From: a bacterium ADurb.Bin212
GTDB taxonomy: Bacteria; Patescibacteriota; UBA1384; XYA2-FULL-43-10
NCBI GenBank assembly: GCA_002070055.1
Contig: MWCM01000006.1
Span: forward strand, 1 to 63,506
DNA: 63,506 nucleotides
Reading direction: 5' to 3'
Part shown: one piece after another, positions 3,176 to 63,506 of the stretch
Layout of the letters: every line of letters starts with the position of its first letter
Position numbering within the stretch: position 1 is the stretch's first letter
Translations under genes and position numbers: made by a program
Notes under the pieces: generated by a model
What the model was told of the DNA's origin: nothing
Seen by the model: only the letters and a program-made list of their open reading frames with translations
The model's database searches: none

Positions 3176-5509
3176 CTATTGGCTTGGATATGTTTCTGAA
3201 TAACTGTTGTTATTAACCATTTTTCCGTCAAGCGTAATCGAGACTAAAGTATCCTTGCCGTTTCCTATTTTGATATAAGCTTTGTTAATGGGTCCCAAAA
3301 GACCGGCTTTGCCAATTACTTTAAATTTAAATTTATCAACACCCCACTCATAAACAGTAATCGCGCCTTTGTTCGGCACATCGCTGGAAGCACCATACTG
3401 GACCGTTATCTTGCTCTTATTGTTTTTGTATGTGTCTCTAAAAGTGGTTAATCTTCTGTAATAGTCCTCCGTGTTTATTCCACTGGCTGGTTTGGCCCAT
3501 CCAGTAACTCTAAAACCATACTCTGTTTCTGTTTTCGAATCTGAAGATGCTCCATTTTTTGGTTCGGCAGTAGAATCACTCCCTGAACCTGGCAACTCAG
3601 GGATTGCTCCACTCATTTTTTTGATCTCAGCGGGACTGAATTTTATATCAGTGCCTGTCTTTAACATTGATATTTTATAATTTTGCCCGTCGGCACTAAA
3701 CATTAACACGGAGTTTGTGTAGGATAATGCGTTTTGAGCTTTAACTTCTACTGCAGTCTGTGCCTGTCCTGGGCTAGCAATTTTGACTTGTGCAGCCATT
3801 CCTTCACCTGATTTCACATTACCCGAAGAGTCAGTTGCAAAGATTCTAGCACTGATTATCCCAGAATTCTTTTCGGCCTCTGTTTTGATTTTTGTTACAT
3901 TAGCTGCGCCATCAATTTTTACTGAGTTATCATTACTAAGATCTATTAGGGTTGCTGGTGCAGATGATCCTCCACTACCTCCACCTCCGCTACCACCACC
4001 GCCGGCCGTGCCACCGGTCCCGCCGGACAAAACGTCTCCTGTCCCTGGTTCCAAGTCGGGCGTTTCCATGTCTTTTGTGGAGTCGCTAACGCCCATTGAT
4101 GCCTTCATCCAGCCGATTGCCCATAATACAAAAGCATCTGCCCAATCCTTCATAACCTCCAAAACTGCGCAGATACCTTTTTTAACTAACAACATAAAAG
4201 AGTTTCCCTCTTGAATTTTGTCACATGCACTTATGGCTCCTGTGGCAGTACCAGAACCAATATCTGTGCTGGACATAGCAAGAGATTCAGCAATTTGTAC
4301 TAATGATTCGTTAGTTAGTGCGTAAGGATCACCTTTGCCGGCTAGACACTGATTGTAGTTATTGTTTGCGCTGATATAACCAGAAGCAGACCAAATCTCA
4401 ACCACTTGAGGTATCATTCTTTTTAAAGAACCCCTATCAAGGTGTCCTCCGATAAGGCTTAATACTTTTTCATAAGAAAGAGCAGCGGCAACGCCAGCCC
4501 CAGCCGCTATCCAGGGGTTTCCTGTACCTGCACCAACAATAGTGGCTGCCCCAGTAACAATTTTGCGTAGTAGCGGTTGTTTTTCTTCAATGGCAAATGG
4601 TTTTATAAATTCATTGGTTGTATATATGTTTATTAACTCTTGAGTCAAGTTGTCTGTTAAGGCCACAGTAGGATATCCCTTGCCGGCTTCACCATAAAAT
4701 TTTCGGAACATGTCTGAATCTTTGCTTTTTATTGCAGTTATAACCTCACTTTGGTCTGTAGCGTTATTGAAAAATTCGTCAATGACCGATGTGTCGTCTT
4801 TATTGGCAGGATCTTCTAGAAGCTTCTTTTTTATTTCCTGCATGAATTCTTCTGCGGCGGTTGCATCAGAGAATACTGGTTTGTCTCGACCCTTTGATTT
4901 ACATGCCTCGATATTCTGTGACAAAGGAGGAGTTGAATTTCTTAGCGTGGAGAACAATCTAATGCCATTAGCGGTATTGCTTAGCACAATATTCATGGTG
5001 GATGCTTGTGTTGGGTCGTAAGTCGCGAAATCAAAGCCCGAAGATATTTTATTGCCTTCAAATTTATCTGAAGCTGTGCCTCCGTTCAACCAACCATTTC
5101 TTACAATATTAAAAGTTACAGTGATCTTCGGCAGTCTTGGTACACCACCTGAAGGGAAGTAACTATCTAAAACTGCAAAATCAGTGACGACTGGGGCGCT
5201 TGTATCGGCTGTCGTTATAACAAAGTATTTTTTTTGTGCAGCTCCTGAAGATATCCAAACCTTCTTGGGCAATTCCGAAGAATCGGTTGTTCCAATGGGA
5301 CCATATTGGTTAAATTTTATAAGAACACTGGTGCCAAGATTATTATAGAACCAGAGTTCAACATTCTTAGTTTTTGGGTTGTAATATTCAACCCATCTCT
5401 GTCCAGGACCTGGTGGGACCTGTGCCATTGTAGATTGAGCGGTAGCAAAAAAAACATTAGTCAAAACTAATATATAAAAAACTATTTTTCTCACTTCCCC
5501 TCCATACAA
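3176..5509 (-). CDS. 777-aa secreted hypothetical protein with an internal Gly/Ser-rich linker
   Basis: Signal peptide (IVFYILVLTNVFFATAQSTMAQ). Linker GGTGGTAGGGGSGGGGSGGSS separates two large domains. First gene of an operon with 305..3148. No family recognised. Confidence 0.65.
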   Translation of the reverse strand: MYGGEVRKIVFYILVLTNVFFATAQSTMAQVPPGPGQRWVEYYNPKTKNVELWFYNNLGTSVLIKFNQYGPIGTTDSSELPKKVWISSGAAQKKYFVITTADTSAPVVTDFAVLDSYFPSGGVPRLPKITVTFNIVRNGWLNGGTASDKFEGNKISSGFDFATYDPTQASTMNIVLSNTANGIRLFSTLRNSTPPLSQNIEACKSKGRDKPVFSDATAAEEFMQEIKKKLLEDPANKDDTSVIDEFFNNATDQSEVITAIKSKDSDMFRKFYGEAGKGYPTVALTDNLTQELINIYTTNEFIKPFAIEEKQPLLRKIVTGAATIVGAGTGNPWIAAGAGVAAALSYEKVLSLIGGHLDRGSLKRMIPQVVEIWSASGYISANNNYNQCLAGKGDPYALTNESLVQIAESLAMSSTDIGSGTATGAISACDKIQEGNSFMLLVKKGICAVLEVMKDWADAFVLWAIGWMKASMGVSDSTKDMETPDLEPGTGDVLSGGTGGTAGGGGSGGGGSGGSSAPATLIDLSNDNSVKIDGAANVTKIKTEAEKNSGIISARIFATDSSGNVKSGEGMAAQVKIASPGQAQTAVEVKAQNALSYTNSVLMFSADGQNYKISMLKTGTDIKFSPAEIKKMSGAIPELPGSGSDSTAEPKNGASSDSKTETEYGFRVTGWAKPASGINTEDYYRRLTTFRDTYKNNKSKITVQYGASSDVPNKGAITVYEWGVDKFKFKVIGKAGLLGPINKAYIKIGNGKDTLVSITLDGKMVNNNSYSETYPSQ

Positions 5510-5550
5510 CTAATAGTCTGCTAGGTGGCAGACGCAATATTACAGTTTAA

Positions 5551-5577
5551 ATTATACTGTAAAAAATATAATAACAA
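5551..5577 (-). promoter_or_regulatory. Candidate sigma70-type promoter for the 5509<-1 operon
   Basis: Minus strand reads TTGTTA (5577-5572), a 15-nt spacer, then TATAAT (5556-5551). A 6-bp hairpin (GTCTGC/GCAGAC, about 5517-5534) follows in the leader. Confidence 0.3.
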
Positions 5578-5581
5578 AACA

Positions 5582-6232
5582 TTAAGACAAAAGTTGTTCA
5601 ACTTCTTTTAAATATTGTTTGGCAAGTTCGTAACTTTCATCTAATTCTTTGGCTTTGGCAAAAGCCTCTTTGGCGCTTAACAGTTTTGTTTTCCGATTGC
5701 TTTCCGACATCTGCACAATTCTGGCAGTTTGTAACCGTGCCAAACCTAAGTATGCCCAAGTTTCTTTGCTGTCTTTTTCCATTTCGAGTATTAGTTCTGT
5801 TTGTATCTCGGCTAATTGTGGTTCATTATCCTCTATCATTTTTTTGACTGTTTCTAGTCCTTCACTCACAGAAGAAGGGACTTTGTTGGCGGCAGCAAGC
5901 TGTTCAAGGTCTTTAATTGAATTTTTTTCTCTCAAAAAAGATTCAAGTTCTAAGAAATTGAGCTGAGCCTTGTTAGCCAGTTGGATTTTATTTTCAGCTT
6001 GGCAGCTTTTACATAGATAATCCGCTTTATGATACTCTACAATGGCCTCTAAATACTTTTTTTCTAGCAACAAGCTGTCGCCCTGAGCGGAAAAATTCTC
6101 CGCCATGTCTCTACGCAAGGGCAAAAGAGCAAAATACAAAACGGACACAAGCGCAGCTAAAGCGACAAGCCAAATAATAAATTTTTGATTTTTAATCTTT
6201 GACCCTGGCGAGGCCGTTTTGGTGCGGTTCAT
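5582..6232 (-). CDS. Membrane-anchored TPR-like/helical-repeat protein
   Basis: The track ORF is 5582..6307. The internal Met (MNRTKTASPGSKIKNQKFIIWLVALAALVSVLYFALLP) is preferred because the longer version overlaps the PAP2 gene by 116 nt. One N-terminal TM followed by TPR-like helices (YLEAIVEYHKADYL, AYLGLARLQ, AKEAFAKAKELD). The start remains uncertain. Confidence 0.55.
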   Translation of the reverse strand: MNRTKTASPGSKIKNQKFIIWLVALAALVSVLYFALLPLRRDMAENFSAQGDSLLLEKKYLEAIVEYHKADYLCKSCQAENKIQLANKAQLNFLELESFLREKNSIKDLEQLAAANKVPSSVSEGLETVKKMIEDNEPQLAEIQTELILEMEKDSKETWAYLGLARLQTARIVQMSESNRKTKLLSAKEAFAKAKELDESYELAKQYLKEVEQLLS

Positions 6233-6782
6233 ACCAAAATTTCTCCCATTTATGGACCATAATGTAGGATAAAATGCCGGAAGCTGTGCCCAGTAGCGCT
6301 CCGGCAATTACGTCGCTTGGGTAATGCAATCCGGCTCCTATGCGCGAAAGAGCTACCGCAATAGCAATAATAAGCAATGTTAAGCCCAATTTTTTATGTC
6401 CATATAGCAGAATTGATACGGCTATAGCAAATACTATGTAGGTGTGGCTAGAAGGGAAAGAGGCCATATCAACGGTAAATCTCTCTGGATTAGTGTTTAT
6501 GATGTCATCGGCATGCGCGATATATGGCCTGGGACGTTTCCAGAAGATGTAGATAGCCAAATCAATCATCCCAGCTATACCGATGGCAAAGAAAGAACAG
6601 ATTAAAGCGTTGATTCTTTTTGTCCATATGAGATATATAAAACTCAGAAACATAAGTACAATGCCGTATTTGGCAAAAAAAACATAAAATAATTGAACTT
6701 TATAATTCTTTATGCCCCAAAAATACATCGAATAAAGCCAACCGAAATCAATCGCTCTAATTTGATTTAATAAATTTTCCAT
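6192..6782 (-). CDS. PAP2-family (type 2) phosphatase, undecaprenyl-diphosphate/phosphatidic-acid phosphatase-like
   Basis: All three PAP2 motifs are present: KRPRP, PSSH and SRIGAGLHYPSD. Multiple TM helices. Confidence 0.85.
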   Translation of the reverse strand: MENLLNQIRAIDFGWLYSMYFWGIKNYKVQLFYVFFAKYGIVLMFLSFIYLIWTKRINALICSFFAIGIAGMIDLAIYIFWKRPRPYIAHADDIINTNPERFTVDMASFPSSHTYIVFAIAVSILLYGHKKLGLTLLIIAIAVALSRIGAGLHYPSDVIAGALLGTASGILSYIMVHKWEKFWYEPHQNGLARVKD

Positions 6783-6806
6783 AGCACCAATATAATAACA
6801 AGATAA

Positions 6807-6836
6807 TTGAGCAGTGTATATATTTTGTCGTATAAT
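6807..6836 (+). promoter_or_regulatory. Candidate promoter for the recombinase gene
   Basis: TTGAGC (6807-6812), an 18-nt spacer, then TATAAT (6831-6836). It lies about 57 nt upstream of the ATG at 6894. Confidence 0.4.
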
Positions 6837-6893
6837 ATTTGTGGGTAGCCAAAAATATTAAACCAAGAACCCAATAATAACATCGGGAGCAAA

Positions 6894-8201
6894 ATGAAAG
6901 ACCTGTGGCAGTTGAAAAGAGAATTTTTAGAGCATTGCGAGATAGAGAAGGGGCAATCAAAATTAACTGTTGATAATTATGGTAGATATTTGGATCGATT
7001 TTTGTCTTGGCTGGGGGAATTTAATGTAAACACAACCACAGATATACTCCACAGATCGACACAGATGGGGAAACAGAGCAATAGAGAAACAGAGGAAGGC
7101 ACAAATCAAGAAATTGGAATATTAGATAATCAAGCCATGAAAGAGCAAGAAAATAGAGGTGAAGCTACTAAAGGGCTGGGAGTTGATGAGATAATGACTA
7201 AAAAGCTAGCTCCTGAATTAATAACCGATGAAACTGTTAGACAATATCGACTATATATCAATCGTCTGAGCGCTCCCGATGGCGGTGAGCTTAAACTAAC
7301 TACTCAAAATCACCATGTTTTGGCTCTACGCGCTTTTTTGCGTTATCTTTTGTCGCGCGGAGTCACAGTTCTGCCTCCAGAGAAGATCTCTTTAGCCAGA
7401 ACCGGCGAAAGAGAGATCAATTTTTTGAACAAGGAGGAGTATATTAGATTGCTTAAATCTCCAGACACTAAAGATGCCGAGGGTATCAGAGACCGGGCGG
7501 TATTGGAAACTTTATTTTCAACCGGCATGAGGGTATCTGAGATAGTAAACTGCAATATCGGTAGACTGAACCTGGAGCAGGGAGAAATATCTATTTTAGG
7601 TAAAGGTAAAAAGCTCAGAGTGGTGTTTTTATCGGAGAGCGCATGTTATTGGCTGGTTAAATATCTGATAATGAGAGGAGCGGTAATAGATCAAAAATCA
7701 AAAATCAAAAATCAAAAAGAAGATAACAAGGAGATTATCTCCACTGATTTAATCTACGGATCGGCACAGATCGGAGAAGTGTCTAACAGCAATATTGCTA
7801 ACGATTTATCAATACAACAATTTAGCAATTTATCTGTTTTAGATTCCTATAAAAATGATCCGCTATTTTTATCGTCTCGTGGCAATAGAATGAATGCCCG
7901 AGCCGTAGAAAGATTGATTAAAAAATACAAAAGGCTGGCGGGGATATCTAAGGACATCTCTCCTCACTCCTTGCGTCACACTTTTGCTACTGATTTATTA
8001 AGCGGTGGTGCAGATATTCGCAGTGTTCAATCTATGCTTGGCCACTCAAATCTCTCCACCACGCAAATTTACACTCATGTTACAGATCAGCATCTTCGTG
8101 AGGTGCACCGTCGTTTTCACGCGGCCAGCAACGAAGACTCCGCCACTGACGCAAGAAGTGCGGATTCCAGTTTTGATGATCAAAATAAAAAGGATCATTA
8201 A
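6894..8201 (+). CDS. Tyrosine recombinase, XerC/XerD family, with three low-complexity insertions and a C-terminal tail
   Basis: Catalytic signature is intact: RDRAVLETLFSTGMRVSE (Arg), HSLRHTFAT (HxxR) and LGHSNLSTTQIYTHV (His/Tyr). Core-binding N-terminus (FLEHCEIEKGQSKLTVDNYGRYLDRF). Extra segments lie at about aa 45-105 and 263-320. Confidence 0.85.
   Translation: MKDLWQLKREFLEHCEIEKGQSKLTVDNYGRYLDRFLSWLGEFNVNTTTDILHRSTQMGKQSNRETEEGTNQEIGILDNQAMKEQENRGEATKGLGVDEIMTKKLAPELITDETVRQYRLYINRLSAPDGGELKLTTQNHHVLALRAFLRYLLSRGVTVLPPEKISLARTGEREINFLNKEEYIRLLKSPDTKDAEGIRDRAVLETLFSTGMRVSEIVNCNIGRLNLEQGEISILGKGKKLRVVFLSESACYWLVKYLIMRGAVIDQKSKIKNQKEDNKEIISTDLIYGSAQIGEVSNSNIANDLSIQQFSNLSVLDSYKNDPLFLSSRGNRMNARAVERLIKKYKRLAGISKDISPHSLRHTFATDLLSGGADIRSVQSMLGHSNLSTTQIYTHVTDQHLREVHRRFHAASNEDSATDARSADSSFDDQNKKDH
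7690..7717 (+). repeat. Heptanucleotide tandem repeat (ATCAAAA)x4 in-frame inside the recombinase gene
   Basis: Read directly: atcaaaa atcaaaa atcaaaa atcaaaa. It encodes KSKIKNQK. Confidence 0.95.
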
Positions 8202-8208
8202 AGATCCT
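8182..8208 (-). terminator. Rho-independent terminator for the minus-strand small gene, overlapping the 3' end of the recombinase CDS
   Basis: Stem AGGATC/GATCCT (8191-8196 / 8203-8208) with a 6-nt loop. On the minus strand it is followed by TTTTATTTT (complement of 8182-8190). Confidence 0.55.
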
Positions 8209-8245
8209 AAATAAAGTGAGTTCAGCGAATGGGTGTTTTTACTGC

Positions 8246-8413
8246 TTAAGAGTTGTTGCGCAAGTCATCCCACATATCAAAGACCTCTACTTCGCAGAGA
8301 TCCGGTTGGGCGGCGCAGGCTGAAATTTCACTTTTTATCTGTTCTATACGTTGAAGTTCCGAGTTAATCGGGATTTCATCTAACTTATCTACTTTTTTGA
8401 TTTTTAATTGCAT
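8246..8413 (-). CDS. 55-aa acidic small protein with its own promoter and terminator
   Basis: Below the track cut-off. My translation: MQLKIKKVDKLDEIPINSELQRIEQIKSEISACAAQPDLCEVEVFDMWDDLRNNS*. Near-consensus promoter upstream and a hairpin plus U-tract downstream. No obvious SD. Confidence 0.55.
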   Translation of the reverse strand: MQLKIKKVDKLDEIPINSELQRIEQIKSEISACAAQPDLCEVEVFDMWDDLRNNS

Positions 8414-8428
8414 TTTGTTTTTGTGTTT

Positions 8429-8454
8429 CTAACCGCCTAATTTTTGGCGATTAG
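8429..8454 (-). promoter_or_regulatory. Inverted repeat overlapping the predicted +1 of the small-gene promoter (operator or 5' hairpin)
   Basis: CTAACCGCC (8429-8437), an 8-nt loop, then GGCGATTAG (8446-8454). In minus-strand RNA it is fully paired, with one G-U pair. Confidence 0.3.
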
Positions 8455-8457
8455 GTC

Positions 8458-8486
8458 ATTGTATCAAAAAAACGCCTCTATGTCAA
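8458..8486 (-). promoter_or_regulatory. Near-consensus sigma70 promoter (minus strand)
   Basis: Minus strand reads TTGACA (8486-8481), a 17-nt spacer, then TACAAT (8463-8458). Confidence 0.55.
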
Positions 8487-8524
8487 GGCATTTTGTGGTA
8501 TTGGTGGTTGATTTATAGCTGGGG

Positions 8525-8570
8525 AGCCCGCTGCCGGCTCGCGTGGCGTGAGCTCTTTTGGCAGCGGGCT
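8525..8570 (-). terminator. GC-rich 11-bp hairpin downstream of the candidate small ORF (no U-tract)
   Basis: AGCCCGCTGCC (8525-8535) pairs perfectly with GGCAGCGGGCT (8560-8570) across a 24-nt loop. Its role as a terminator or RNA structure is uncertain. Confidence 0.35.
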
Positions 8571-8586
8571 GGATCTCGGCTCGAAG

Positions 8587-8760
8587 TCAGTTCAGGTTGT
8601 GGCTGTCGACGCCGGGATTGAGGCACTCCATACACTCGTCACAGTTCGTTGGCCTACCCCTTTCGTCGGCGTTGGGGCAGCTTGGTCTTAGTATGGCGCA
8701 TCTCAGGACGACGACGATGTCAAAGAAAGTCCTTACGATAGCGCAAGCTTTTTGCAGCAT
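8587..8760 (-). CDS. Candidate 57-aa Cys-rich small ORF in a GC-rich island (alternatively a structured RNA)
   Basis: Minus-strand ATG at 8758-8760, with AAGGAGG 12 nt upstream. Translation: MLQKACAIVRTFFDIVVVLRCAILRPSCPNADERGRPTNCDECMECLNPGVDSHNLN* (6 Cys). It sits 47 nt downstream of the Mur-ligase stop. Local GC is far above the neighbours, so an open frame is weak evidence on its own. Confidence 0.3.
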   Translation of the reverse strand: MLQKACAIVRTFFDIVVVLRCAILRPSCPNADERGRPTNCDECMECLNPGVDSHNLN

Positions 8761-8807
8761 GGTGAGACATCACCTCCTTATTCGAGCACAGATTAAGACT
8801 TACAAAC

Positions 8808-10130
8808 TTAAGCCTTAAATCTTTGTTCGAGTTCTTTTTTTACGATCTTTCTGTCTGAAAATGGCACAAATTCGTGTAGCCCGACAGCCATGACCTCTTC
8901 GGCACCTTTACCGGTAATTATTACCACGTCATCCTTTTTAGCTTCACGAATCGCTTTTTTAATGGCCTGTTCACGATCAATCACTTTCCAATAATTTCTG
9001 TTTAATCTCCATTGATGTTTATTGCCTCCGCGGTGTATGCCCTCTGCTACCTCTTCCATGATTGTTAAAGGGTCTTCATCATAAGGATCCTCGTCTGTAA
9101 ATACTACTAAGTCGGCGTAACCACCGGCGAGTGCTCCCATAATTGGGCGCTTGGTTTTGTCGCGACGTCCTGTTGCGCCAAGTACGGCAATCATTCGTCC
9201 ACCACTCTTTTTGAGTCCATCTTTTATCGTTTCATATACATTTTTTAGAGAGTCAGGGTTATGTGCATAATCTACAATAACTGTAAAATCTTGTTTTTGG
9301 GAAACCCTAACTGATTCCATTCTGCCGGCAATACTTAAAATATTTTCCAGCCCCTGTTTGATAATATTGGGGTCGATCTCCAAGGCAACGCCAACACAAA
9401 AGGTAGCAAGGGCATTTAAGATATTAAATATGCCAGGCAGATTTAGATTAATTGTAATTTGCCCGTTGTCGTAAGCGGCTGTAAAGGTAGAGGAGTCAGG
9501 AGCGGTTAAAATCTTTCTGGCAACCGCGCCATGTTCCGGAGGATTCTTGACTGAATATAAGAACTTCTCCTTGCCAGGCACGGAGTAGAATTTGTTCCAG
9601 TTGGCGTCATCTCTGTTTATTATAAAAATAGCCTGCGGATGATCTTTAAAAACTTTTAACTTTGCATTTAAATAGTTCTCTTTGGTTTTATGGTATTCCA
9701 TGTGCTCGTGAGAGAGATTGGTGTAAACTAAAATATCGTAGTTTATACCGTGGATGCGGTTTTGATCTATGGCCTGGGAGGTGGTTTCAATTATGGCGTA
9801 TTCGCAACCTTCAATCACCGCTTGTTTCAAAAATCTTTGCAGAACGTTAGATGGAGGAGTGGTTACCCACTTATCTTTGGTGGTGTGGGGGATGATTTTT
9901 TCACCAAACTTGGTGTTAATGGTGGTTTCCATGGCGTTTTTAATGCCTGCGGCATCCAAAACACTGGCGATCATATTGCAAACTGTAGTTTTGCCTTTAG
10001 TACCGGTAACACCAATTACTTTTATTTTTCGGCTTGGTTTACCGTATTTTAAAACTGCCAAATTGGCCTCAACTTTGTGAAGCTTATTTTTAGTCTCTTG
10101 GGATAAAATTTTTGATAAGTATTTTTTCAT
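8808..10130 (-). CDS. Mur ligase family protein, MurE-like, apparently lacking the usual N-terminal domain
   Basis: P-loop VIGVTGTKGKTT. Also TNLSHEHMEYH, DYAHNPDS and VLGATGRRDKTKRP...VVFTDEDPYDEDP, as in MurE-type ligases. Only about 35 residues precede the P-loop. 440 aa. Confidence 0.85.
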   Translation of the reverse strand: MKKYLSKILSQETKNKLHKVEANLAVLKYGKPSRKIKVIGVTGTKGKTTVCNMIASVLDAAGIKNAMETTINTKFGEKIIPHTTKDKWVTTPPSNVLQRFLKQAVIEGCEYAIIETTSQAIDQNRIHGINYDILVYTNLSHEHMEYHKTKENYLNAKLKVFKDHPQAIFIINRDDANWNKFYSVPGKEKFLYSVKNPPEHGAVARKILTAPDSSTFTAAYDNGQITINLNLPGIFNILNALATFCVGVALEIDPNIIKQGLENILSIAGRMESVRVSQKQDFTVIVDYAHNPDSLKNVYETIKDGLKKSGGRMIAVLGATGRRDKTKRPIMGALAGGYADLVVFTDEDPYDEDPLTIMEEVAEGIHRGGNKHQWRLNRNYWKVIDREQAIKKAIREAKKDDVVIITGKGAEEVMAVGLHEFVPFSDRKIVKKELEQRFKA

Positions 10131-11077
10131 TTCCTTCTGATTTTTTCTGCGATTTTAAATAGATTATACTCAAATGGCCGCAGTATTAAATCCCAACTTC
10201 CAGCCAACCGGATTTCTTGCCCGCCAAACTTCTTTTTAAAATCTGTCACCCCTCGCCATGGGTGATTGGGTTCATTGGGCGGGGCGATACCGAAAAAGTC
10301 ATATTCGGTGCAGCCTCGTGATTTTGCCTCGCGAATTGCTGTCCACTGCAAAAGGTAGGGAGCCATCAAATTCTTGTATTCGTCGCTTGAGCCGCCAAAC
10401 AGATATATTGCCTTGTCTTGGTAGAAAGAAATTATCACCGAAGCAATGGGGATTTGATTTGCCTTCTTGTCTTCCGCATCATTCTTTATTCTTAATTCGT
10501 TATTCTGTTTCACAACGGCAGTAAACACCTTACAATAGCCTTTTGTGCTCAGTATGTCAATTAATTTTTGGAAATAAGCTGAGTTGCGATGGCTGATATT
10601 GTGTCTCTGAGACATGCTGGAATAGAGCTTGAAAAAGTTCTTGGTGTCTTTTTCCTCGACAATATTGATCTGATTCTTTTGTGCGACTTTAATATTGTAG
10701 CGACCCTTTTGCTTCATTTGTTTAAGTATTTCGTCTTCTGGTTTACTTATATCCAGAACAAGTGTGTGTTCCGGTTGCATCTCCTCAAATGCTTTTTTAA
10801 AAAGTGAATGATGATTGATGAATGATGAATTATGGAGCGGGACATCGAGCTCTAGCCTATAAAATATTGACCTATTATCACGAGCTATATCTTTAATTTG
10901 TTCCAAAAATCTGTTATTCATTATTCGTTCTTCGTTATTCACCATGGGGCTATACAGCATGTTTCTCCCCATGGGTAGACTTTTTTGTAACACCAAAATA
11001 TCATTGATACGATATGACTTTTGATATCCGGTGGCCAATTTAAAAGCTTCCCACTCGGGGCTTTGGAATAAATTCAT
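10127..11077 (-). CDS. FemAB/FemX-family peptidoglycan interpeptide-bridge aminoacyltransferase
   Basis: N-terminal FQSPEWEAFK, C-terminal GVTDFKKKFGG and the overall length (316 aa) are typical of the FemAB family. A 4-nt overlap couples it to the Mur ligase. Confidence 0.8.
   Translation of the reverse strand: MNLFQSPEWEAFKLATGYQKSYRINDILVLQKSLPMGRNMLYSPMVNNEERIMNNRFLEQIKDIARDNRSIFYRLELDVPLHNSSFINHHSLFKKAFEEMQPEHTLVLDISKPEDEILKQMKQKGRYNIKVAQKNQINIVEEKDTKNFFKLYSSMSQRHNISHRNSAYFQKLIDILSTKGYCKVFTAVVKQNNELRIKNDAEDKKANQIPIASVIISFYQDKAIYLFGGSSDEYKNLMAPYLLQWTAIREAKSRGCTEYDFFGIAPPNEPNHPWRGVTDFKKKFGGQEIRLAGSWDLILRPFEYNLFKIAEKIRRK
10481..10508 (-). repeat. Heptad-periodic run inside femX-like gene
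   Basis: Plus strand: attcttt attctta attcgtt attctgt. The sense strand encodes NNELRIKND and contains the 13-mer GAATTAAGAATAA, shared with 56414-56426 and 61920-61932. Confidence 0.85.
10805..10832 (-). repeat. Heptad tandem repeat (TGAATGA-like x4) inside femX-like gene
   Basis: tgaatga tgattga tgaatga tgaatta. The sense strand encodes NSSFINHHS. Confidence 0.9.
10914..10941 (-). repeat. Heptad tandem repeat (TTATTCA-like x4) inside femX-like gene
   Basis: ttattca ttattcg ttcttcg ttattca. The sense strand encodes NNEERIMNN. Confidence 0.9.
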
Positions 11078-11100
11078 GAGTTCATTTTAACAAATTTATC

Positions 11101-11141
11101 GTGAAAAGAGAAAGGCCGCCACGGTGGCACCGAGGCGGCCT
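11101..11141 (-). terminator. Rho-independent terminator after the 69-aa ORF
   Basis: AGGCCGCC (11113-11120) pairs with GGCGGCCT (11134-11141). On the minus strand it is followed by TTCTCTTTTCAC. Confidence 0.6.
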
Positions 11142-11169
11142 CCTGCTCCCTGAGCGGCTATGCGTGATG

Positions 11170-11379
11170 TTAATGGCGTGGTGCGAACAGTGGAACGTTC
11201 GGCGGCAGGTTGTGGCGTGTCTTGTTGTGCTCGAAGACTATGCAGGTTCCATCTTGGCATTGTTGGTAGAACCGGCAGTCCGTTGGCACATCTCCCAACA
11301 TGACCGTGACCGAATCGCCGCAGACTATATCTTTTGCGTCGAGCGGGTCGCCCATACCCAATCCAGTAGCTTCGCTCAT
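11170..11379 (-). CDS. Candidate 69-aa Cys-containing small protein in a GC-rich island
   Basis: AGGAGGA plus a 6-nt spacer plus ATG. Translation: MSEATGLGMGDPLDAKDIVCGDSVTVMLGDVPTDCRFYQQCQDGTCIVFEHNKTRHNLPPNVPLFAPRH. It has its own terminator. About 55-60% GC against the AT-rich flanks. Confidence 0.45.
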   Translation of the reverse strand: MSEATGLGMGDPLDAKDIVCGDSVTVMLGDVPTDCRFYQQCQDGTCIVFEHNKTRHNLPPNVPLFAPRH

Positions 11380-11479
11380 TGTGTTTCCTCCTCTCTGGGA
11401 GAGATCTGTTTCTGTCCTTATTTTAATAACAGTTTAAGAAATAGAAAAGTGGATAAATTTGTGTTAGAATTCGTTAGTT

Positions 11480-12679
11480 ATGAAATATGAACATAATGAT
11501 CAAATTAAAATACTTGCTATCGAAACTTCGTGCGATGAAACCAGCGTGGCGGTTATTGGTGTAGAAAATGGAAATCCAGTGATTTTGTCGAATGTTGTAA
11601 GCTCACAAATTGATTTACACGCAAAAACGGGCGGGGTGGTGCCGGAAGTTGCTTCGCGTGCGCACATGGAGGCAATGATACCTGTAATTAAAGAAGCCCT
11701 ATTAAGGGCTAATTCAAAATTTAAAATTCAAAATTTAAAATTCAATGAAAATTCTAAATTAGAAATTGAAAATTCTCTTAAAGAGATAACACATGTTGCG
11801 GTGACGGCTGGACCGGGTTTGATTGGTTCACTGCTTGTTGGATTTAACACTGCAAAATCGCTTGCCTACGCGCTGGATCTCCCGATTATTCCGGTAAATC
11901 ATATCGAAGGACATATATACTCGGCATTAGCTGAGAAATTTTCAATTTTCAATTTTCAATTTTCAAATAAATCACATATTCAAAATTCAAGATCTGTTAC
12001 CTGCAACCTATCACCCGCAACCTTTCCCATTTTAGCCCTTACGGTTTCTGGAGGACATACATCGCTGACATTAGTCCACAATCATGGTGAATACGAAAAC
12101 ATCGGGCAAACTTTGGATGATGCGGCGGGGGAGGCTTTTGATAAAGTGGCGAAACTACTGGGGCTCGGTTACCCTGGTGGCCCGGAAGTATCAAAAATTG
12201 CAAAACAGTATCGAAATACAAAAAATGGTGATGATACTATTGAACTGCCACTACCCTTGTCTAGAGATAATTCCTGTAATTTTTCATTCTCCGGATTGAA
12301 AACGGCAGTCATAAATGTTTGGCGGAAAGCGGAGGAAGAATATGAAAATCAGCCGGAAAAAATTGAGGAATTTAAAGCTGAGTTGGCGGCAAAGTTCGAG
12401 GAAACTGCGATCGCCCACTTAATCGATAAAACGCTAAAAGCGTTGAGGGCAACTGGTGCTAAGAATGTTGTACTAGCCGGAGGCGTTTCGGCAAACAATT
12501 ATTTAAGAGAGAATATGCAAAAAGAGTTGAAAGGCTTGGGTGTTGCGTTGTTAATGCCACCAATGGAATTGTGTGGCGATAATGCCGCTATGATTGGGCT
12601 AGCCGCTTATTATCATATTATTAGGGAAAACGTCTCAAATTGGCATGAGATCAAGATAGATTCCAATTTCAGGCTATAG
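11480..12679 (+). CDS. tsaD: tRNA N6-adenosine threonylcarbamoyltransferase TsaD (Kae1/Gcp family) with two heptad-repeat insertions
   Basis: ILAIETSCDETS, NHIEGH metal motif, VSGGHTSL, GYPGGP, LAGGVSAN and CGDNAAMIG. Confidence 0.92.
   Translation: MKYEHNDQIKILAIETSCDETSVAVIGVENGNPVILSNVVSSQIDLHAKTGGVVPEVASRAHMEAMIPVIKEALLRANSKFKIQNLKFNENSKLEIENSLKEITHVAVTAGPGLIGSLLVGFNTAKSLAYALDLPIIPVNHIEGHIYSALAEKFSIFNFQFSNKSHIQNSRSVTCNLSPATFPILALTVSGGHTSLTLVHNHGEYENIGQTLDDAAGEAFDKVAKLLGLGYPGGPEVSKIAKQYRNTKNGDDTIELPLPLSRDNSCNFSFSGLKTAVINVWRKAEEEYENQPEKIEEFKAELAAKFEETAIAHLIDKTLKALRATGAKNVVLAGGVSANNYLRENMQKELKGLGVALLMPPMELCGDNAAMIGLAAYYHIIRENVSNWHEIKIDSNFRL
11711..11780 (+). repeat. Ten consecutive heptads in-frame in tsaD (insertion 1)
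   Basis: aattcaa aatttaa aattcaa aatttaa aattcaa tgaaaat tctaaat tagaaat tgaaaat tctctta. Encodes NSKFKIQNLKFNENSKLEIENSL. Confidence 0.9.
11937..12027 (+). repeat. Thirteen consecutive heptads in-frame in tsaD (insertion 2)
   Basis: aattttc x4, then aaataaa tcacata ttcaaaa ttcaaga tctgtta cctgcaa cctatca cccgcaa cctttcc. Encodes FSIFNFQFSNKSHIQNSRSVTCNLSPAT, lying between the HIEGH and SGGHT motifs. Confidence 0.9.
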
Positions 12680-12687
12680 TTTGTATA

Positions 12688-14139
12688 CTAGTATGCTGGG
12701 CCCAGATTTCCTCCGCCAACAAACTGCCAGTTATATCTTTCGCTGGAGTTTGCTCCAAGGAATTTCATGGCCGTAGGGCTGATATCTAGGCCTGCAGCAT
12801 TAGAACCTTGATCTTCACAGCCTCCAAGATTGACTCCGCTTTCAACAGACGGCCTATTTGGCCCACATACATAATCAGCATCTTTTATATTGCAAGGGCC
12901 GGAATCGACTACGGCTAAAATTACTGATTTGCCATTGTTTGGATTGGTAACTTTTATCTTCATACAATTTTTAATATCTCCTTTGCATTGAGAAGCAATT
13001 TGTGAATATGGCAGGGAAGCAAAGTATTGAGTTGGAGCGTTGCATCCGGTGCTGATACCGCTTGAACCAATACAGTTATCCCCGCTATCAGCACACTTGC
13101 CATTGCTGCCACACCCAGCAAAAGTGGTTGTGCGCACAGACGTGTGTAATATTTCTTTACAATTGCATACAAATGGGTCTTTAAGAGCTGTAAGACCTGA
13201 GTATGTAATTGGTGCAACTATCTTGAAATCTCTACTCTCGCTGGTAGGTATCAGTATGTCTGGGTTAATATCTTGTTTAACTAACGGGTCTGGAACAACA
13301 TAGGTCTTGATCGAAAAACCATTGATCCAGCTTTGGTATTTTTGTTCATCTGTAAGGCCAGAAAGGCTAAAATCAAATTTTATTTCAGTCGTCTTTAATA
13401 ATGAGTCTAAGGGCATATTTATTGTCTGCAGACTTTTTCCTGAAGTTGAGATACTGTTTGATGCCGACCAGTTTGAAGTAACCGCAAACACCTCGAACTT
13501 TACGGTAGCTTTTGGCACGGCAGTGCTATTCATGCCAATAGAGATATTTGAGACTCTTGATACTGGTATCGAAAATGTGGCAGAACTTGGTGCCTGTCTA
13601 TTCTTGAGTTGGTTAATCGAGATATTATTTCTTAAGTAGTGGACATCCCATTTACTTAAGTGATAAAAACCGTTGTATCCAGATTGATATTTAGAGCCAT
13701 TATAAATGCTGTGCATCAGATCTGTTTCTCGATCAATAAAAAAATTTGTCGAACTAGCAGGGCTTAACATTTTTGACATTAAAGAGCTTCCTGCGGCGGC
13801 CTTTACAATAAAACCACTAATTTTCTTGGCATTATATTTTTCACCTGATAGAAATACTGTGTAGCCACAAGGCAAGGGGTTGTTGACAGTGACACTATAA
13901 TTACCATTGGCGTCAGTGGTACTGGAAGATGAATCGCCCTTAGCGTCAACCAACATTACATTTACACCGGCTGCGGCCTTTCCGAATGAAGTGTTGTCCA
14001 AGCTTTCAAAAACCTTCCCTTTTATTACTACGCTAGTTGAGATCTCGTCTGCTCCAATAAAATTCAGCGACAGCAAAAGGGCAGTGACGGCTAAAGCAAC
14101 AATCAGAAAAATTGAAATTCTAATATTTTTTATTTTCAT
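12688..14139 (-). CDS. Secreted protein: carboxypeptidase-regulatory-like N-terminal domain plus Cys-rich C-terminal RlpA/expansin-like double-psi beta-barrel
   Basis: Start moved to the internal ATG (14137-14139), which has GAGGGG plus a 6-nt spacer. Signal/TM segment ISIFLIVALAVTALLLSL. GKVFE...AAAGVNVMLVD...TDANGNYSVTV. The C-terminal KVTNPNNGKSVILAVVDSGP...GLDISPTAMKFLG resembles the RlpA DPBB domain. Confidence 0.65.
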   Translation of the reverse strand: MKIKNIRISIFLIVALAVTALLLSLNFIGADEISTSVVIKGKVFESLDNTSFGKAAAGVNVMLVDAKGDSSSSTTDANGNYSVTVNNPLPCGYTVFLSGEKYNAKKISGFIVKAAAGSSLMSKMLSPASSTNFFIDRETDLMHSIYNGSKYQSGYNGFYHLSKWDVHYLRNNISINQLKNRQAPSSATFSIPVSRVSNISIGMNSTAVPKATVKFEVFAVTSNWSASNSISTSGKSLQTINMPLDSLLKTTEIKFDFSLSGLTDEQKYQSWINGFSIKTYVVPDPLVKQDINPDILIPTSESRDFKIVAPITYSGLTALKDPFVCNCKEILHTSVRTTTFAGCGSNGKCADSGDNCIGSSGISTGCNAPTQYFASLPYSQIASQCKGDIKNCMKIKVTNPNNGKSVILAVVDSGPCNIKDADYVCGPNRPSVESGVNLGGCEDQGSNAAGLDISPTAMKFLGANSSERYNWQFVGGGNLGPAY

Positions 14140-14253
14140 CTCTAACCCCTCATTAATACAATTTGTGAATAATTCTAACATATATTGTTTATTGCTACTA
14201 GATAAAAAACAGCTTTGATTCAAGTAATTTTTATGGTAATCTTATAAATAAAT

Positions 14254-62793: not shown

Positions 62794-62835
62794 AAGAGCC
62801 GCCCCTGCCGGTTAAGGCGTGTTGGGGCGGCTCTT
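62794..62835. terminator. 12-bp GC-rich hairpin between convergent genes, exactly at the compositional boundary
   Basis: AAGAGCCGCCCC (62794-62805) pairs with GGGGCGGCTCTT (62824-62835) across an 18-nt loop. Short T-rich stretches follow on both strands. Confidence 0.6.
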
Positions 62836-62857
62836 GTTCTTAGCGCTGTGAGGGGCG

Positions 62858-63506
62858 CTAGCCCTTGGCGGGGATCGTGACTTCGGGGGTGAAGTCCACG
62901 ATGGTCGTATCCACTGTGGTGCCACCGTCTCCTTGAGCGGCGGAGATGTCGTAGACAATCACCGCGAAGGCGGCACGGCTGACTACTTTGCCGGCCATGT
63001 AATTGCCCTCGAGCCAGGTGACGTCTTCGGAGCCGGAGACCGTGCTCGCGTAGGCGTTGTAGCGGCTGGGAGCCGATACAACCACGCCATCCTTGGTCCA
63101 GACAGCAGCCCACTTGAAGGGCTGCCAGACTTCCACTTGGTAGTGGCCGTCCGCGTCCTTGGCATAGGCCTTACCGCTCGGGTCCACGGCGACCATGCGC
63201 ACGGTGTAGCCGTCCAAGTCGACGGCTTTGACTTCGATGGTAACGCGAATGGTGCCTCCGGGGTAGCTGACGTCAGCATCGTAGGCGCCAGGGCCGAGCA
63301 CCCAACCGTTCGGGGTGGGAGAAACGACCTGGCTCGTGCCGTGCTTGTACACGGTGGCAGGCCAATCGATGCCGCCCATGGTCTGGACAGTGCCGGCATC
63401 CATGGTACCGACTTCGGCCTGTCTGAGCGCCACGATCTTGTAGGCGCCAGACAGAACCGTGAAGTGGTCAGGCGCGTCCTGCGGCAGGTAGGAATTGTCG
63501 TAATCA
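62858..63506 (-). CDS. Partial CDS (N-terminus beyond the right edge): GC-rich hypothetical, probably secreted/beta-rich protein
   Basis: The track ORF 62858..63433 starts at a GTG. The frame stays open upstream to the window end (DYDNSYLPQDAPDHFTVLSGAYKI-VALRQ...). About 60% GC against about 25-35% next door. No family recognised. Confidence 0.6.
   Translation of the reverse strand, partial: DYDNSYLPQDAPDHFTVLSGAYKIVALRQAEVGTMDAGTVQTMGGIDWPATVYKHGTSQVVSPTPNGWVLGPGAYDADVSYPGGTIRVTIEVKAVDLDGYTVRMVAVDPSGKAYAKDADGHYQVEVWQPFKWAAVWTKDGVVVSAPSRYNAYASTVSGSEDVTWLEGNYMAGKVVSRAAFAVIVYDISAAQGDGGTTVDTTIVDFTPEVTIPAKG

What the first reader, a model, noticed from the sequence alone, without database searches (positions are those of the whole stretch)
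8521..11400. Two GC-rich mini-islands with small Cys-containing ORFs and GC-rich hairpins bracket the femX to MurE-like operon
8521-8775 and 11101-11400 are roughly 55-60% GC by hand count, inside DNA of about 35-40% GC. Each holds a minus-strand small ORF with a strong SD (AAGGAGG; AGGAGGA plus 6 nt). The ORFs are 57 aa with 6 Cys and 69 aa with 4 Cys, and both begin with a C-x14-C spacing. They share an in-frame 11-mer, GCCACAACCTG (HNL), near the C-terminus. Each is followed by a long perfect GC hairpin (11 bp and 8 bp), the same hairpin style seen at 62794-62835.

The compositional contrast suggests one of three things: acquired cassettes, structured RNAs (GC-rich islands in AT-rich genomes are often ncRNAs), or small proteins under unusual constraint. 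Their position on either side of two peptide-bond-forming cell-wall enzymes raises the speculative possibility of peptide substrates or regulators.
Basis: partly seen in the sequence, partly recalled or inferred. Interest (0 to 1): 0.65.

Follow-up and report, generated by a model that had tools for sequence, protein, structure and literature searches.

The report
Two swappable, highly expressed GC-rich mini-genes
The two GC-rich patches either side of the femX–murE cell-wall operon of this AT-rich, uncultured Patescibacteria-type bacterium are most likely small, strongly expressed protein-coding genes with no known relatives, sitting in intergenic slots where closely related strains carry different genes; they are not known RNAs and show no link to the cell-wall enzymes.

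Summary
Windows 8521-8775 and 11101-11400 are 58% and 57% GC in a 38% GC window. Each holds a minus-strand ORF (57 aa with 6 Cys; 69 aa with 4 Cys), a strong Shine-Dalgarno (SD) site and a perfect GC hairpin.

Rfam gives no hit. Without the hairpins, the transcript bodies fold no better than shuffled sequence.

Coding evidence:
- GC3 is 0.67 and 0.63, against 0.37 in host genes.
- The 69-aa ORF has a syntenic orthologue with omega 0.31; only its frame stays open in both.
- The 57-aa ORF has only four strain variants: three synonymous, one V->I.

In five sludge metatranscriptomes, these two ORFs and a conserved 55-aa gene are the only RNA contigs above 4x in 20 kb.

Two strains about 99% identical in tsaD and femX carry unrelated small genes in the upstream slot. 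Both alleles occur in one metagenome. The switch points lie inside the flanking genes, so the swap is by homologous recombination, not a site-specific cassette system.

Downstream-of-murE slots in relatives repeatedly hold GC-rich small membrane-protein ORFs.

No homologue, domain, phage match or confident fold was found, so function is unknown. The shared 11-mer is coincidental, and a link to FemX/MurE is not supported.

Verdict: orphan accessory mini-genes, of moderate interest.

The parts
11420..11425 (-). Likely -10 box (TAAAAT) of the ORF2 promoter, in AT-rich, host-like DNA
   Evidence: Read from the sequence. The orthologue L001 has TACAAT at the aligned position. RNA contigs reach 11397. 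Inferred, not mapped.
11386..11403 (-). ORF2 5'UTR: small hairpin CUCUC-CCA-GAGAG overlapping the SD site AGGAGGA (11386-11392)
   Evidence: This segment and the first 10 codons are nearly identical in L001 (1 change in the hairpin, 2 just before the ATG; codons 1-10 identical).
11170..11379 (-). ORF2: 69-aa, 4-Cys small protein with no detected hydrophobic segment, GC3 0.63
   Evidence: Orthologue is 76% identical and syntenic. Omega is 0.31 (permutation P=0.01). It is the only frame open in both. RNA contigs cover 11145-11397.
11103..11141 (-). ORF2 terminator: GC hairpin (11113-11141) plus T-tract (11103-11112)
   Evidence: Conserved in L001 with one stem change to a G-U pair. RNA depth falls from ORF2 to femX.
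11084..11092 (-). Extended -10 (TGTTAAAAT) 6 nt before the femX ATG, implying its own promoter and a leaderless or near-leaderless femX mRNA
   Evidence: Read from the sequence. L001 has TGCTAGAAT and L004 has TATAAT in the same place. Inferred.
8808..11077 (-). femX (FemAB family, 10127-11077) and murE (8808-10130), the conserved housekeeping operon bracketed by the two slots
   Evidence: Pfam and NCBIfam. Synteny is conserved in about 25 relatives.
8773..8779 (-). ORF1 SD site AAGGAGG. RNA contigs start here (8774-8779).
   Evidence: No convincing promoter lies between murE and ORF1, so the origin of the 5' end (own promoter or processing) is unresolved.
8587..8760 (-). ORF1: 57-aa, 6-Cys small protein with a hydrophobic N-terminal helix and a C-terminal CP...CxxCxxC tail, GC3 0.67
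   Evidence: Kyte-Doolittle 19-residue mean hydropathy is 2.05. The second haplotype differs at 4 sites: 3 synonymous third positions and V17I. RNA contigs cover 8575-8779 at 7-50x. No homologue.
8525..8570 (-). GC-rich stem-loop 3' of ORF1: 11-bp perfect stem with an inner 7-bp helix and no U-tract. Presumed terminator that insulates the o55 promoter.
   Evidence: RNA contigs in 5 runs end at 8575-8580, at the foot of the stem.
8246..8486 (-). Neighbouring conserved small gene o55 (8246-8413) with a near-consensus promoter (TTGACA-17-TACAAT, 8458-8486). It marks the distal edge of slot B.
62795..63506 (-). Third GC-rich gene (lipoprotein, GC3 0.78) with the same style of 3' hairpin (62795-62834)

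Best explanation
Each island is a small, self-contained, highly expressed gene, most likely protein-coding, that has no known family. Each gene occupies an intergenic slot next to the conserved femX-murE operon.

Slot A lies between tsaD and femX. It holds, in order: an AT-rich promoter, a strong SD site, the 69-aa ORF2, and a GC hairpin with a U-tract terminator. femX then starts from its own extended -10 box.

Slot B lies between murE and the conserved o55 gene. It holds a strong SD site, the 57-aa ORF2-unrelated ORF1, and a long GC hairpin that ends the transcript before the o55 promoter.

The contents of the slots are accessory. Close strains carry unrelated small genes there, exchanged by homologous recombination through the conserved flanking genes.

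The GC-rich codon usage and GC-rich terminators mark these genes as compositionally foreign to the 38% GC genome. They may have been imported from a higher-GC gene pool, or kept GC-rich by recombination-linked or RNA-stability effects.

Products (inferred):
- ORF1 is a small membrane-anchored peptide with a Cys-rich tail that may bind metal or form disulfides. This matches the small transmembrane proteins found in the same slot in relatives.
- ORF2 is a small beta-rich 4-Cys protein with no detected hydrophobic segment.

The most likely role (inferred) is a strain-specific function at the cell surface or in interactions with host, phage or competitors, not peptidoglycan synthesis.

Shown: composition, gene anatomy, expression, purifying selection on ORF2, allelic replacement, recombination. 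Inferred: promoters, terminator function, topology, biological role.
For: Composition:
- GC3 is 0.67 (ORF1) and 0.63 (ORF2). The 42 long host ORFs have mean 0.37, sd 0.036, max 0.45.
- GC3-GC2 periodicity in the called frames gives P=0.004 and P=0.005.

Coding, ORF2:
- It has a 76%-identical orthologue in the same tsaD|femX slot, in two independent assemblies.
- There are no indels, and all 4 Cys are kept.
- Nei-Gojobori omega is 0.31, against 0.75-1.2 in four control frames. The antisense frame that shares third positions gives 0.355.
- Permutation P=0.01, and 66% of random substitution sets would create a stop codon.
- Only this frame stays open in both sequences.

Coding, ORF1:
- The second haplotype has 4 changes: 3 synonymous third positions and V17I.

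Expression:
- Five activated-sludge metatranscriptomes were laid across two calls. X48, X49 and X50 are in both calls, X52 only (over 8100-11700), and X54 only (over window 1-20000).
- Over window 1-20000, the only RNA contigs above about 4x are ORF1 (8575-8779, 7-50x), ORF2 (11145-11397, up to 35x) and o55.
- femX, murE and tsaD are at 0-2.5x. In-gene GC-rich stretches are not covered, so this is not a GC artefact.

Replacement:
- L001/L002 and L004 are 98.7-100% identical over 1582 nt of tsaD and about 1000 nt of femX. Slot A is unrelated between them: the ORF2 orthologue versus an 83-aa ORF.
- Both alleles are in run X25.
- The X2/X4 haplotype is a mosaic: 35 changes in 8161-9369 and almost none in 9370-11399.

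Slot B in relatives:
- It holds GC-rich ORFs with hydropathy 1.95-2.78.
- L004 has a transmembrane helix followed by CPGC...CSAC.

Hairpins:
- 3 of the 4 perfect GC stems in the window follow the 3 GC-rich genes.
Against: - ORF1 has no homologue at all. Its coding status rests on 4 variant sites (P about 0.11 alone), periodicity, the SD site and expression.
- ORF2 is no better conserved than its UTRs (83% against 85% and 83%). Its SD site and first 10 codons carry no synonymous change, which hints at an RNA-level constraint.
- No donor lineage was found in the word-indexed search of 5.8 billion proteins for either ORF, or in the HMMER search of 1.84 billion representatives, which was run for ORF2 only.
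- The lipoprotein family keeps GC3 at 0.78-0.84 across relatives only 70-87% identical. This fits poorly with simple recent import followed by drift toward host composition.
- Logan RNA contigs carry no strand. Their depth is a crude measure of expression.
- Structure models are of low confidence (pLDDT 62 and 57).
- No promoter was found for ORF1.
Confidence: 0.6

Rival explanations
1. The islands are novel small non-coding or dual-function RNAs, and the ORFs are by-products of GC-rich sequence, which has few stop codons.
For: - The transcripts are short (about 200-250 nt), discrete and abundant.
- Many overlapping ORFs exist in all frames of the islands.
- The ORF2 5'UTR and first 10 codons are invariant between orthologues, with no synonymous change.
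- Island 1 folds with z=-3.45 when its hairpin is included.
Against: - No Rfam family matches in the window or in 20 related loci.
- Without the terminal hairpins, the bodies fold no better than shuffles: z=-0.01 and +0.05.
- ORF2 has omega 0.31 in frame, and only its frame is preserved.
- Codon-position GC periodicity gives P about 0.005 in both ORFs.
- Both ORFs have strong SD sites close upstream of the ATG (6 nt for ORF2, 12 nt for ORF1).
Confidence: 0.15
2. ORF1, and the other small hydrophobic ORFs in slot B, are type I toxin-like membrane peptides whose stable, structured mRNAs are held in check by an antisense RNA.
For: - ORF1 is 57 aa with a hydrophobic helix (hydropathy 2.05). Relatives carry 30-100 aa transmembrane ORFs in the same slot.
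- A small hairpin overlaps the SD site and spacer.
- The content is strain-variable, has no known relatives and is intergenic.
- The RNA is abundant, with a discrete end at 8579/8580 that could equally be the 5' end of a plus-strand RNA.
Against: - No antisense transcript can be shown, because the contigs are unstranded.
- No plus-strand promoter is visible near 8580.
- The helix carries three charged residues (R10, D14, R20).
- The long Cys-rich tail is atypical.
- ORF2 is not hydrophobic (0.78).
Confidence: 0.12
3. ORF2 with its terminator is a leader-peptide attenuator for femX-murE, or the small peptides are substrates or regulators (including modified-peptide precursors) of the FemX/MurE enzymes.
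For: - A small ORF followed by a hairpin and U-tract lies about 25 nt upstream of femX.
- RNA depth falls sharply across the terminator.
- FemAB enzymes use aminoacyl-tRNA (established knowledge).
Against: - At 69 aa and under purifying selection along its length, ORF2 is far longer than known leader peptides.
- An unrelated 83-aa ORF replaces it in a strain with about 99% identical femX.
- Other relatives have no homologue, and some have almost no spacer, e.g. 117 nt in L008.
- femX has its own -10 box after the terminator in three lineages.
- No peptide-maturation enzyme is in the neighbourhood.
- No alternative antiterminator pairing stood out in the folds.
Confidence: 0.05
4. The islands are site-specific mobile cassettes of integron or miniature-transposon type, and the hairpins are their recombination sites.
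For: - Each unit is a single small ORF plus an imperfect palindrome.
- A tyrosine recombinase gene lies next to slot B.
- An 11-nt perfect inverted repeat flanks island 2, at 11090-11100 and 11452-11462.
Against: - No RYYYAAC...GTTRRRY core is present in any island.
- The recombinase is XerD/XerC-like (239 and 224 bits). It scores 107 bits against the integron-integrase model, whose cutoff is 265, and it is syntenic in relatives.
- The genes are single units between housekeeping genes, not an array.
- The allele switch points lie inside tsaD-proximal DNA and inside femX, not at the hairpins.
- The flanking inverted repeat is only 7/11 conserved in L001, and its right arm is the femX promoter.
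- No other copies exist in the window.
Confidence: 0.04

Closest known systems
Replacement-type flexible genomic islands or islets: strain-variable gene content at a fixed chromosomal position, exchanged through conserved flanks
   Same: - The position is fixed between conserved housekeeping genes.
- Unrelated alleles occur in strains about 99% identical, and they co-occur in one sample.
- Recombination breakpoints lie in the flanking genes.
- Base composition is atypical.
   Different: - The scale is a single 57-86 aa gene, about 250-450 bp, instead of multi-gene clusters.
- No donor can be identified.
- The genes are among the most abundant transcripts of the region.
Horizontally acquired genes and genomic islands reported in Patescibacteria (PMC12455944)
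   Same: That paper reports more than 100 genomic islands, mostly exchanged among Patescibacteria, with about 62% of the genes of unknown function. The islands here also have atypical composition and unknown function.
   Different: These are single mini-genes, too small for island-calling tools. In the lipoprotein family, high GC3 persists across diverged relatives, which is not expected for import followed by drift toward host composition.
Type I toxin-antitoxin toxins (Hok, Fst, TxpA-like small membrane peptides)
   Same: ORF1 and the slot-B ORFs are similar in size and have a hydrophobic helix. The location is intergenic and strain-variable. The mRNA is abundant, and a hairpin sits at the SD site.
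   Different: No antitoxin RNA is shown. The Cys-rich tail is atypical. No sequence similarity exists. Toxicity is untested.
Integron gene cassettes
   Same: Small promoter-poor ORFs are followed by an imperfect palindrome, with a tyrosine recombinase nearby.
   Different: There is no attC core, no integron integrase and no array, and exchange is by homologous recombination.

Membership tests
Any Rfam RNA family | Covariance-model score at or above the family's gathering threshold | tested here: not met
   There are 0 hits in the window and 0 in 20 related loci. The best sub-threshold hit is ctRNA_pGA1 at 20.6 bits against a threshold of 45, and it falls on the ORF2 terminator.
Structured non-coding RNA (generic) | Folding energy clearly below shuffled controls, or covarying base pairs | tested here: not met
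   Transcript bodies give z=-0.01 and +0.05. Only the terminal hairpins are exceptional. Covariation cannot be tested with two sequences.
Protein-coding gene | Purifying selection in frame, frame conservation and codon-position periodicity | tested here: met
   ORF2: omega 0.31, P=0.01, and the only frame open in both sequences. Periodicity gives P=0.005 (ORF2) and P=0.004 (ORF1). ORF1 has only 4 variant sites, 3 synonymous and V17I, so for ORF1 the evidence is suggestive rather than conclusive.
Replacement flexible genomic islet | Different gene content at the same locus in near-identical strains, with conserved flanks | tested here: met
   Shown for slot A: L001/L002 versus L004 have 98.7-100% identical flanks and unrelated inserts, and both alleles are in run X25. 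For slot B the comparison is only with more distant relatives (window versus L004 at 87% nt).
Horizontally acquired island | An identifiable donor or a homologue outside the lineage | tested here: not met
   ORF1 has no homologue other than itself, and ORF2 has only its one orthologue cluster (ORF2). Phages and IMG/VR give nothing.
Integron gene cassette | attC site with RYYYAAC ... GTTRRRY cores | tested here: not met
   No match on either strand in any of the three islands.
Integron gene cassette | Adjacent integron integrase and a cassette array | tested here: not met
   The neighbouring recombinase is best matched by XerD/XerC (239 and 224 bits). The integron integrase model gives 107 bits against a cutoff of 265. 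The genes are single units between housekeeping genes.
Type I toxin-antitoxin | Small peptide (under about 60 aa) with a membrane-spanning helix | tested here: inconclusive
   ORF1 has a 19-residue hydropathy of 2.05, but the segment contains R10, D14 and R20. ORF2 scores 0.78 and does not qualify.
Type I toxin-antitoxin | Antisense or overlapping antitoxin RNA, and toxicity on expression | not testable with these tools
   RNA is available only as unstranded Logan contigs.
Modified-peptide (RiPP) precursor | A neighbouring maturation enzyme and a conserved precursor family | tested here: not met
   The neighbours are TsaD, FemAB, MurE, o55 and a Xer recombinase only. There is no peptide family.
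Leader-peptide attenuator | A short regulatory ORF conserved together with the regulated operon, and alternative terminator/antiterminator pairings | tested here: not met
   The ORF is 69 aa and under selection along its length. It is replaced by an unrelated ORF upstream of a 99%-identical femX. No antiterminator was evident.
Anti-phage defence proteins (PADLOC) and phage protein families (PHROGs) | A profile match | tested here: not met
   PADLOC gives 0 hits. PHROGs gives only E of 0.01 or worse on fragments.

The most novel reading that the evidence does not exclude
This Patescibacteria lineage maintains a pool of GC-rich, very highly expressed mini-genes: small membrane, Cys-rich and lipoprotein products. 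They are shuffled between strains at fixed chromosomal slots by homologous recombination and kept polymorphic within populations. They would act as strain-specific surface or interaction factors, for attachment to a host cell, phage exclusion or immunity, or as toxin-like peptides. Their persistent GC-richness would be maintained by recombination-linked biased gene conversion or by selection for RNA stability, not by recent import.
Probability: 0.15. Interest if true: 0.65.

Novelty: new member of a known kind. Interest (0 to 1): 0.4.

Why it matters
Patescibacteria have tiny genomes and depend on other cells. What distinguishes one strain from another is largely unknown, and small ORFs are usually ignored or mis-annotated.

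This locus gives a clean example of three things together:
- single-gene accessory units that are among the most abundant transcripts of their region;
- units that differ between co-existing, near-identical strains;
- units that carry a compositional signature, GC3 about 0.65 against 0.37, which makes them easy to find.

If such mini-genes mediate host, phage or competitor interactions, they would be a tractable entry point into strain-level ecology of uncultured episymbionts. The persistence of high GC3 in an AT-rich genome would also be a useful natural test of recombination-linked GC bias.

If they are simply orphan hitch-hikers, the result is still a useful correction. The islands are not RNAs and are not tied to cell-wall synthesis.

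Tried and rejected
1. Known RNAs. Rfam at gathering thresholds on the window and on 20 relatives, and a permissive scan of 8300-11600, gave nothing real. There are no tRNA or tmRNA genes.

2. Protein families. Pfam, NCBIfam, PHROGs and PADLOC gave no credible hits for either ORF or for the L004 alleles.

3. Homologues.
- The word-indexed search gave only self for ORF1 and one orthologue cluster for ORF2.
- The full HMMER search with the ORF2 profile returned giant repeat proteins of four unrelated families (SprB, Ig_7, CBM_14, DUF11). These are summed weak hits to a 25-residue Cys/beta motif and were rejected as non-homologous.
- PDB sequence search gave nothing.

4. Phage origin. tblastn against 50,697 phage records and three IMG/VR scans were negative.

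5. Structure. AlphaFold2 models have pLDDT 62 (ORF2) and 57 (ORF1). Foldseek's best matches for ORF2 are Tudor, chromo and BirA-C small barrels at E>0.3. This is suggestive of an SH3-like barrel only, and I do not rely on it.

6. Relationship between ORF1 and ORF2, or between the window ORFs and the L004 alleles. BLASTP found nothing. The shared 11-mer is not conserved in the orthologue.

7. Terminal inverted repeat around island 2. It is poorly conserved and overlaps the femX promoter, so it is probably chance.

8. Integron cassette, leader peptide and modified-peptide precursor: see the membership tests.

9. Assembly chimera. Rejected, because the islands are present in many independent runs and no read joints skip them.

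10. GC bias or DNA carry-over in the RNA runs. Rejected, because in-gene GC-rich stretches (1241-1616, 3892-4193) are not covered, while the AT-rich o55 gene is.

11. A general Patescibacteria phenomenon. A scan of 475 kb of low-GC loci from other lineages flagged almost nothing comparable.

The window end was used instead.

Full report
**Source and setting**

The window is the reverse complement of bases 79895-143400 of contig JAKJEL010000001.1 (174 kb) from assembly GCA_022705445.1. It is 37.9% GC. The genome is near-identical to sequence in anaerobic-digester, sludge and manure metagenomes. Its closest relatives in the genome collection are uncultured Patescibacteria-type genomes assembled from metagenomes, many labelled Saccharibacteria.

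On the minus strand the local order is:
- tsaD (divergent, plus strand)
- slot A
- femX (FemAB family), overlapping murE by 4 nt
- slot B
- a conserved 55-aa gene, here called o55
- a XerC/D-like recombinase on the opposite strand

This order holds in about 25 relatives.

**1.

- GC is 58.4% for 8521-8775 and 57.0% for 11101-11400.
- The ORFs, Cys counts, C-x14-C spacings, SD sites and hairpins are as described.
- The window has only four perfect GC-rich stems of at least 8 bp, where shuffles give 0.1. Three of them lie directly 3' of the three GC-rich genes in the window.
- The other GC-rich stretches of the window are low-complexity parts of long genes.
- The islands are not assembly artefacts. 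Island 1 is present in 7 independent runs as two haplotypes, with no joints that skip it. Island 2 is in three assemblies.

**2. Not a known or strongly structured RNA**

- Rfam gives no match at gathering thresholds in the window or in 20 related loci. The permissive scan gives only sub-threshold noise on the ORF2 terminator.
- With the hairpin included, island 1 folds with z=-3.45.
- The transcribed bodies alone (8575-8779 and 11145-11405) fold exactly like shuffles, z=-0.01 and +0.05.

**3. Coding evidence**

Both ORFs show GC3 > GC1 > GC2 in the called frame:
- ORF1: 0.50, 0.43, 0.67.
- ORF2: 0.60, 0.41, 0.63.
- The 42 long host ORFs have GC3 of 0.37, sd 0.036, max 0.45.
- The periodicity is significant in both (P=0.004 and 0.005).

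ORF2:
- It has one orthologue cluster: 76% identical, 72 aa, in the same tsaD|femX slot, in a Logan assembly and a JGI assembly.
- Over 204 aligned nt there are no indels, and all four Cys are kept.
- Differences by codon position are 9, 9 and 17.
- Omega is 0.31 in frame. Control frames give 0.75-1.2, apart from the antisense frame that shares third positions.
- Random placement of the same number of changes gives as few non-synonymous changes in only 1% of trials, and creates a stop codon in 66%.
- Only the ORF2 frame stays open in both sequences. The 129-codon plus-strand ORF of the window is broken in the orthologue.

Caveat for ORF2: the ORF is no more conserved than its UTRs. The SD site and codons 1-10 carry no synonymous change, so an extra RNA-level constraint at the start is possible.

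ORF1:
- It has no homologue anywhere.
- The only comparative data are four differences in a second haplotype. Positions 8755, 8740 and 8716 are synonymous third positions. Position 8712 gives V17I (effects derived by hand from the frame).
- This supports coding but is weak on its own (about P=0.11).

**4. Expression**

Five activated-sludge metatranscriptomes hold near-identical contigs:
- ORF1: 8575/8579/8580 to 8774-8779, depth 7-50x.
- ORF2: 11145-11219 to 11374-11397, depth 2.5-35x.
- o55: 8209-8437, depth 2.4-16x.

In window 1-20000 nothing else exceeds about 3x. This includes femX, murE, tsaD and the in-gene GC-rich stretches, so GC bias or DNA carry-over does not explain the pattern.

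In the deepest run, the GC-rich lipoprotein gene is the only multi-contig stretch covered in 44000-63506.

The ORF1 contigs begin at the SD site and stop at the foot of the 3' hairpin. In two runs, sequencing adapter is fused at 8579/8580. This fits an RNA that ends in a hairpin refractory to priming. It could also be a genuine end there.

Contigs carry no strand, so an antisense RNA cannot be excluded.

I found no convincing promoter between murE and ORF1. Its RNA either starts from an unrecognised promoter or is a stable 3' product of the operon transcript (inference).

**5. The slots are strain-variable and exchanged by homologous recombination**

- L001 and L002 (which carry the ORF2 orthologue) and L004 are 98.7-99.9% identical over 1582 nt of tsaD, and 99-100% identical over about 1000 nt of femX.
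- Between these flanks, L004 carries an unrelated 83-aa ORF (GC 0.52) with its own GC hairpin and U-tract.
- The switch points are just beyond the tsaD start and inside the first 60 nt or so of femX. They are not at the hairpins.
- In run X25 both alleles are present: a 1558-nt contig at 13.4x, and a 405-nt contig at 6.3x that runs on into the L001-type sequence.
- After murE, L004 carries yet another GC-rich ORF: a transmembrane helix followed by CPGC...CSAC, cut by the contig end.
- Neither island of the window has any DNA or protein match in L004, although murE is 96% identical in protein and 87% in DNA.
- The second haplotype of the window species differs at 35 sites between 8161 and 9369 and at almost none from 9370 to 11399, which is the pattern of an imported tract.
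- Window tsaD is only 56% identical to L004 tsaD at the protein level, against 87% and 96% for femX and murE. Slot A is therefore also an older recombination boundary.
- Relatives show GC-rich stretches (over 0.53) in slot A or B in at least L005, L006, L007, L010/L091, L011/L088, L085, L089, L090 and L097.
- The plausible slot-B ORFs all have a strongly hydrophobic 19-residue segment, 1.95-2.78. ORF1 scores 2.05.

**6. Origin of the GC-richness is unresolved**

- No donor was found among proteins, phages or viral contigs.
- The GC-rich segment matches the transcribed unit, from SD site to hairpin. The promoters are AT-rich and host-like.
- The same contig holds two more GC-rich genes with the same anatomy: a 77-aa two-helix membrane protein and a lipoprotein.
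- The lipoprotein family keeps GC3 at 0.78-0.84 in relatives 70-87% identical, inside AT-rich Patescibacteria contexts. One relative has three GC-rich genes in a row.
- This argues for an external or lineage-specific high-GC gene pool, and against rapid drift toward host composition. Recombination-linked GC bias or selection for stable mRNA are alternatives that I could not test.
- A scan of 475 kb of other low-GC Patescibacteria loci found almost nothing similar, so the pattern is specific to this lineage.

**7. What it is not**

- Not an integron cassette. There are no attC cores, the recombinase is Xer-type, there is no array, and exchange is by homologous recombination.
- Not a leader peptide or a FemX/MurE partner. 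The unit is swapped upstream of a 99%-identical femX, it is absent in other relatives, and femX has its own extended -10 box in three lineages.
- Not a modified-peptide precursor. No maturation enzymes are nearby.
- The two ORFs are unrelated to each other. The shared 11-mer, although it occurs only twice in the window, is not kept in the ORF2 orthologue.

**8. Function**

No domain, structure or homologue gives a lead.
- The ORF2 model (pLDDT 62) is a four-strand beta structure resembling Tudor or SH3-like barrels, at non-significant scores.
- The ORF1 model (pLDDT 57) is two helices.

My commitment, at low confidence for the role itself: these are strain-specific accessory small proteins. 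ORF1 is a membrane-anchored peptide with a Cys-rich tail. ORF2 is a small 4-Cys protein with no detected hydrophobic segment. Both are kept polymorphic in the population for interaction-type functions.

A type I toxin-like role for ORF1 is a live alternative, and so is a dual-function RNA.

**Verdict**

The features are real and the anatomy is well defined. The islands are best filed as orphan accessory mini-genes in recombination-prone slots. The notable twists are very high relative expression, within-population allelic replacement and persistent GC-richness.

Noticed in passing
window 8246-8486 (-): A conserved 55-aa gene (o55) lies directly after slot B, with a near-consensus promoter (TTGACA-17-TACAAT preceded by TG). 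It is found after murE in about 15 relatives at 33-52% identity, two Cys are often kept, and no family matches. It is one of the three abundant RNAs of the first 20 kb.
   Followed up: partly
L001 2738-2929; L004 1413-1764: The 5' end of tsaD (about 52 nt) is tandemly duplicated two or three times, with an 88-nt spacer that holds a GC hairpin (CCCGCCCCGCGGGGCG). Reads show a 'goes back 67' joint, so copy number varies. This may be a scar of recombination at slot A.
   Followed up: partly
window 11065-11092 (-); L001 about 3320-3345; L004 about 2215-2230: femX has no SD site. A -10 box lies 2-6 nt upstream of its ATG (TGTTAAAAT in the window, TGCTAGAAT in L001, TATAAT in L004), which suggests a leaderless or near-leaderless mRNA.
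   Followed up: no
window 8161-9369 versus 9370-11399: The haplotype in runs X2 and X4 has 35 substitutions and 3 small indels confined to 8161-9369, and is almost identical beyond. This is a clear recombination tract ending inside murE.
   Followed up: partly
window 11480-12679 versus L004 135-1460: tsaD is only 56% identical in protein between the window genome and L004. The adjacent femX and murE are 87% and 96% identical, far above the 46-53% and 69-76% seen with other relatives. femX-murE (together with ORF2 in L001) looks recently exchanged between lineages.
   Followed up: no
window 62858-63506 (-) and L164 9700-10576: A GC-rich lipoprotein gene (GC3 0.78) has a signal peptide ending LLGGCGG (lipobox-like). 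It is interrupted by a run of N exactly at the window end. It has four homologue clusters, all GC-rich and all in AT-rich Patescibacteria contexts. L165 has three GC-rich genes in a row.
   Followed up: partly
L164 2091-2324 (contig JAKJEL010000001.1, outside the window): A further GC-rich (0.59) 77-aa two-helix membrane protein has an SD site and a GC hairpin. It matches a pilin-like conjugal-transfer family weakly (NF045849, E=0.007) and phrog_6637 (E=0.001). The window itself starts with a TrbL-like gene at 305-3148.
   Followed up: no
window 6894-8201 (+): The XerC/D-like recombinase is 435 aa because of low-complexity insertions (about residues 55-110 and 280-320). It scores below the XerC and XerD equivalog cutoffs.
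   Followed up: no
window 8808-10130 (-): MurE aligns to the murE models only from about profile position 62-84 onward. It therefore seems to lack most of the N-terminal domain of canonical MurE.
   Followed up: no
window 1241-1616, 3892-4193, 28025-28340, 57-303: The other GC-rich stretches of the window are Pro/Gly/Ala/Ser-rich low-complexity segments inside long genes, not separate islands.
   Followed up: yes
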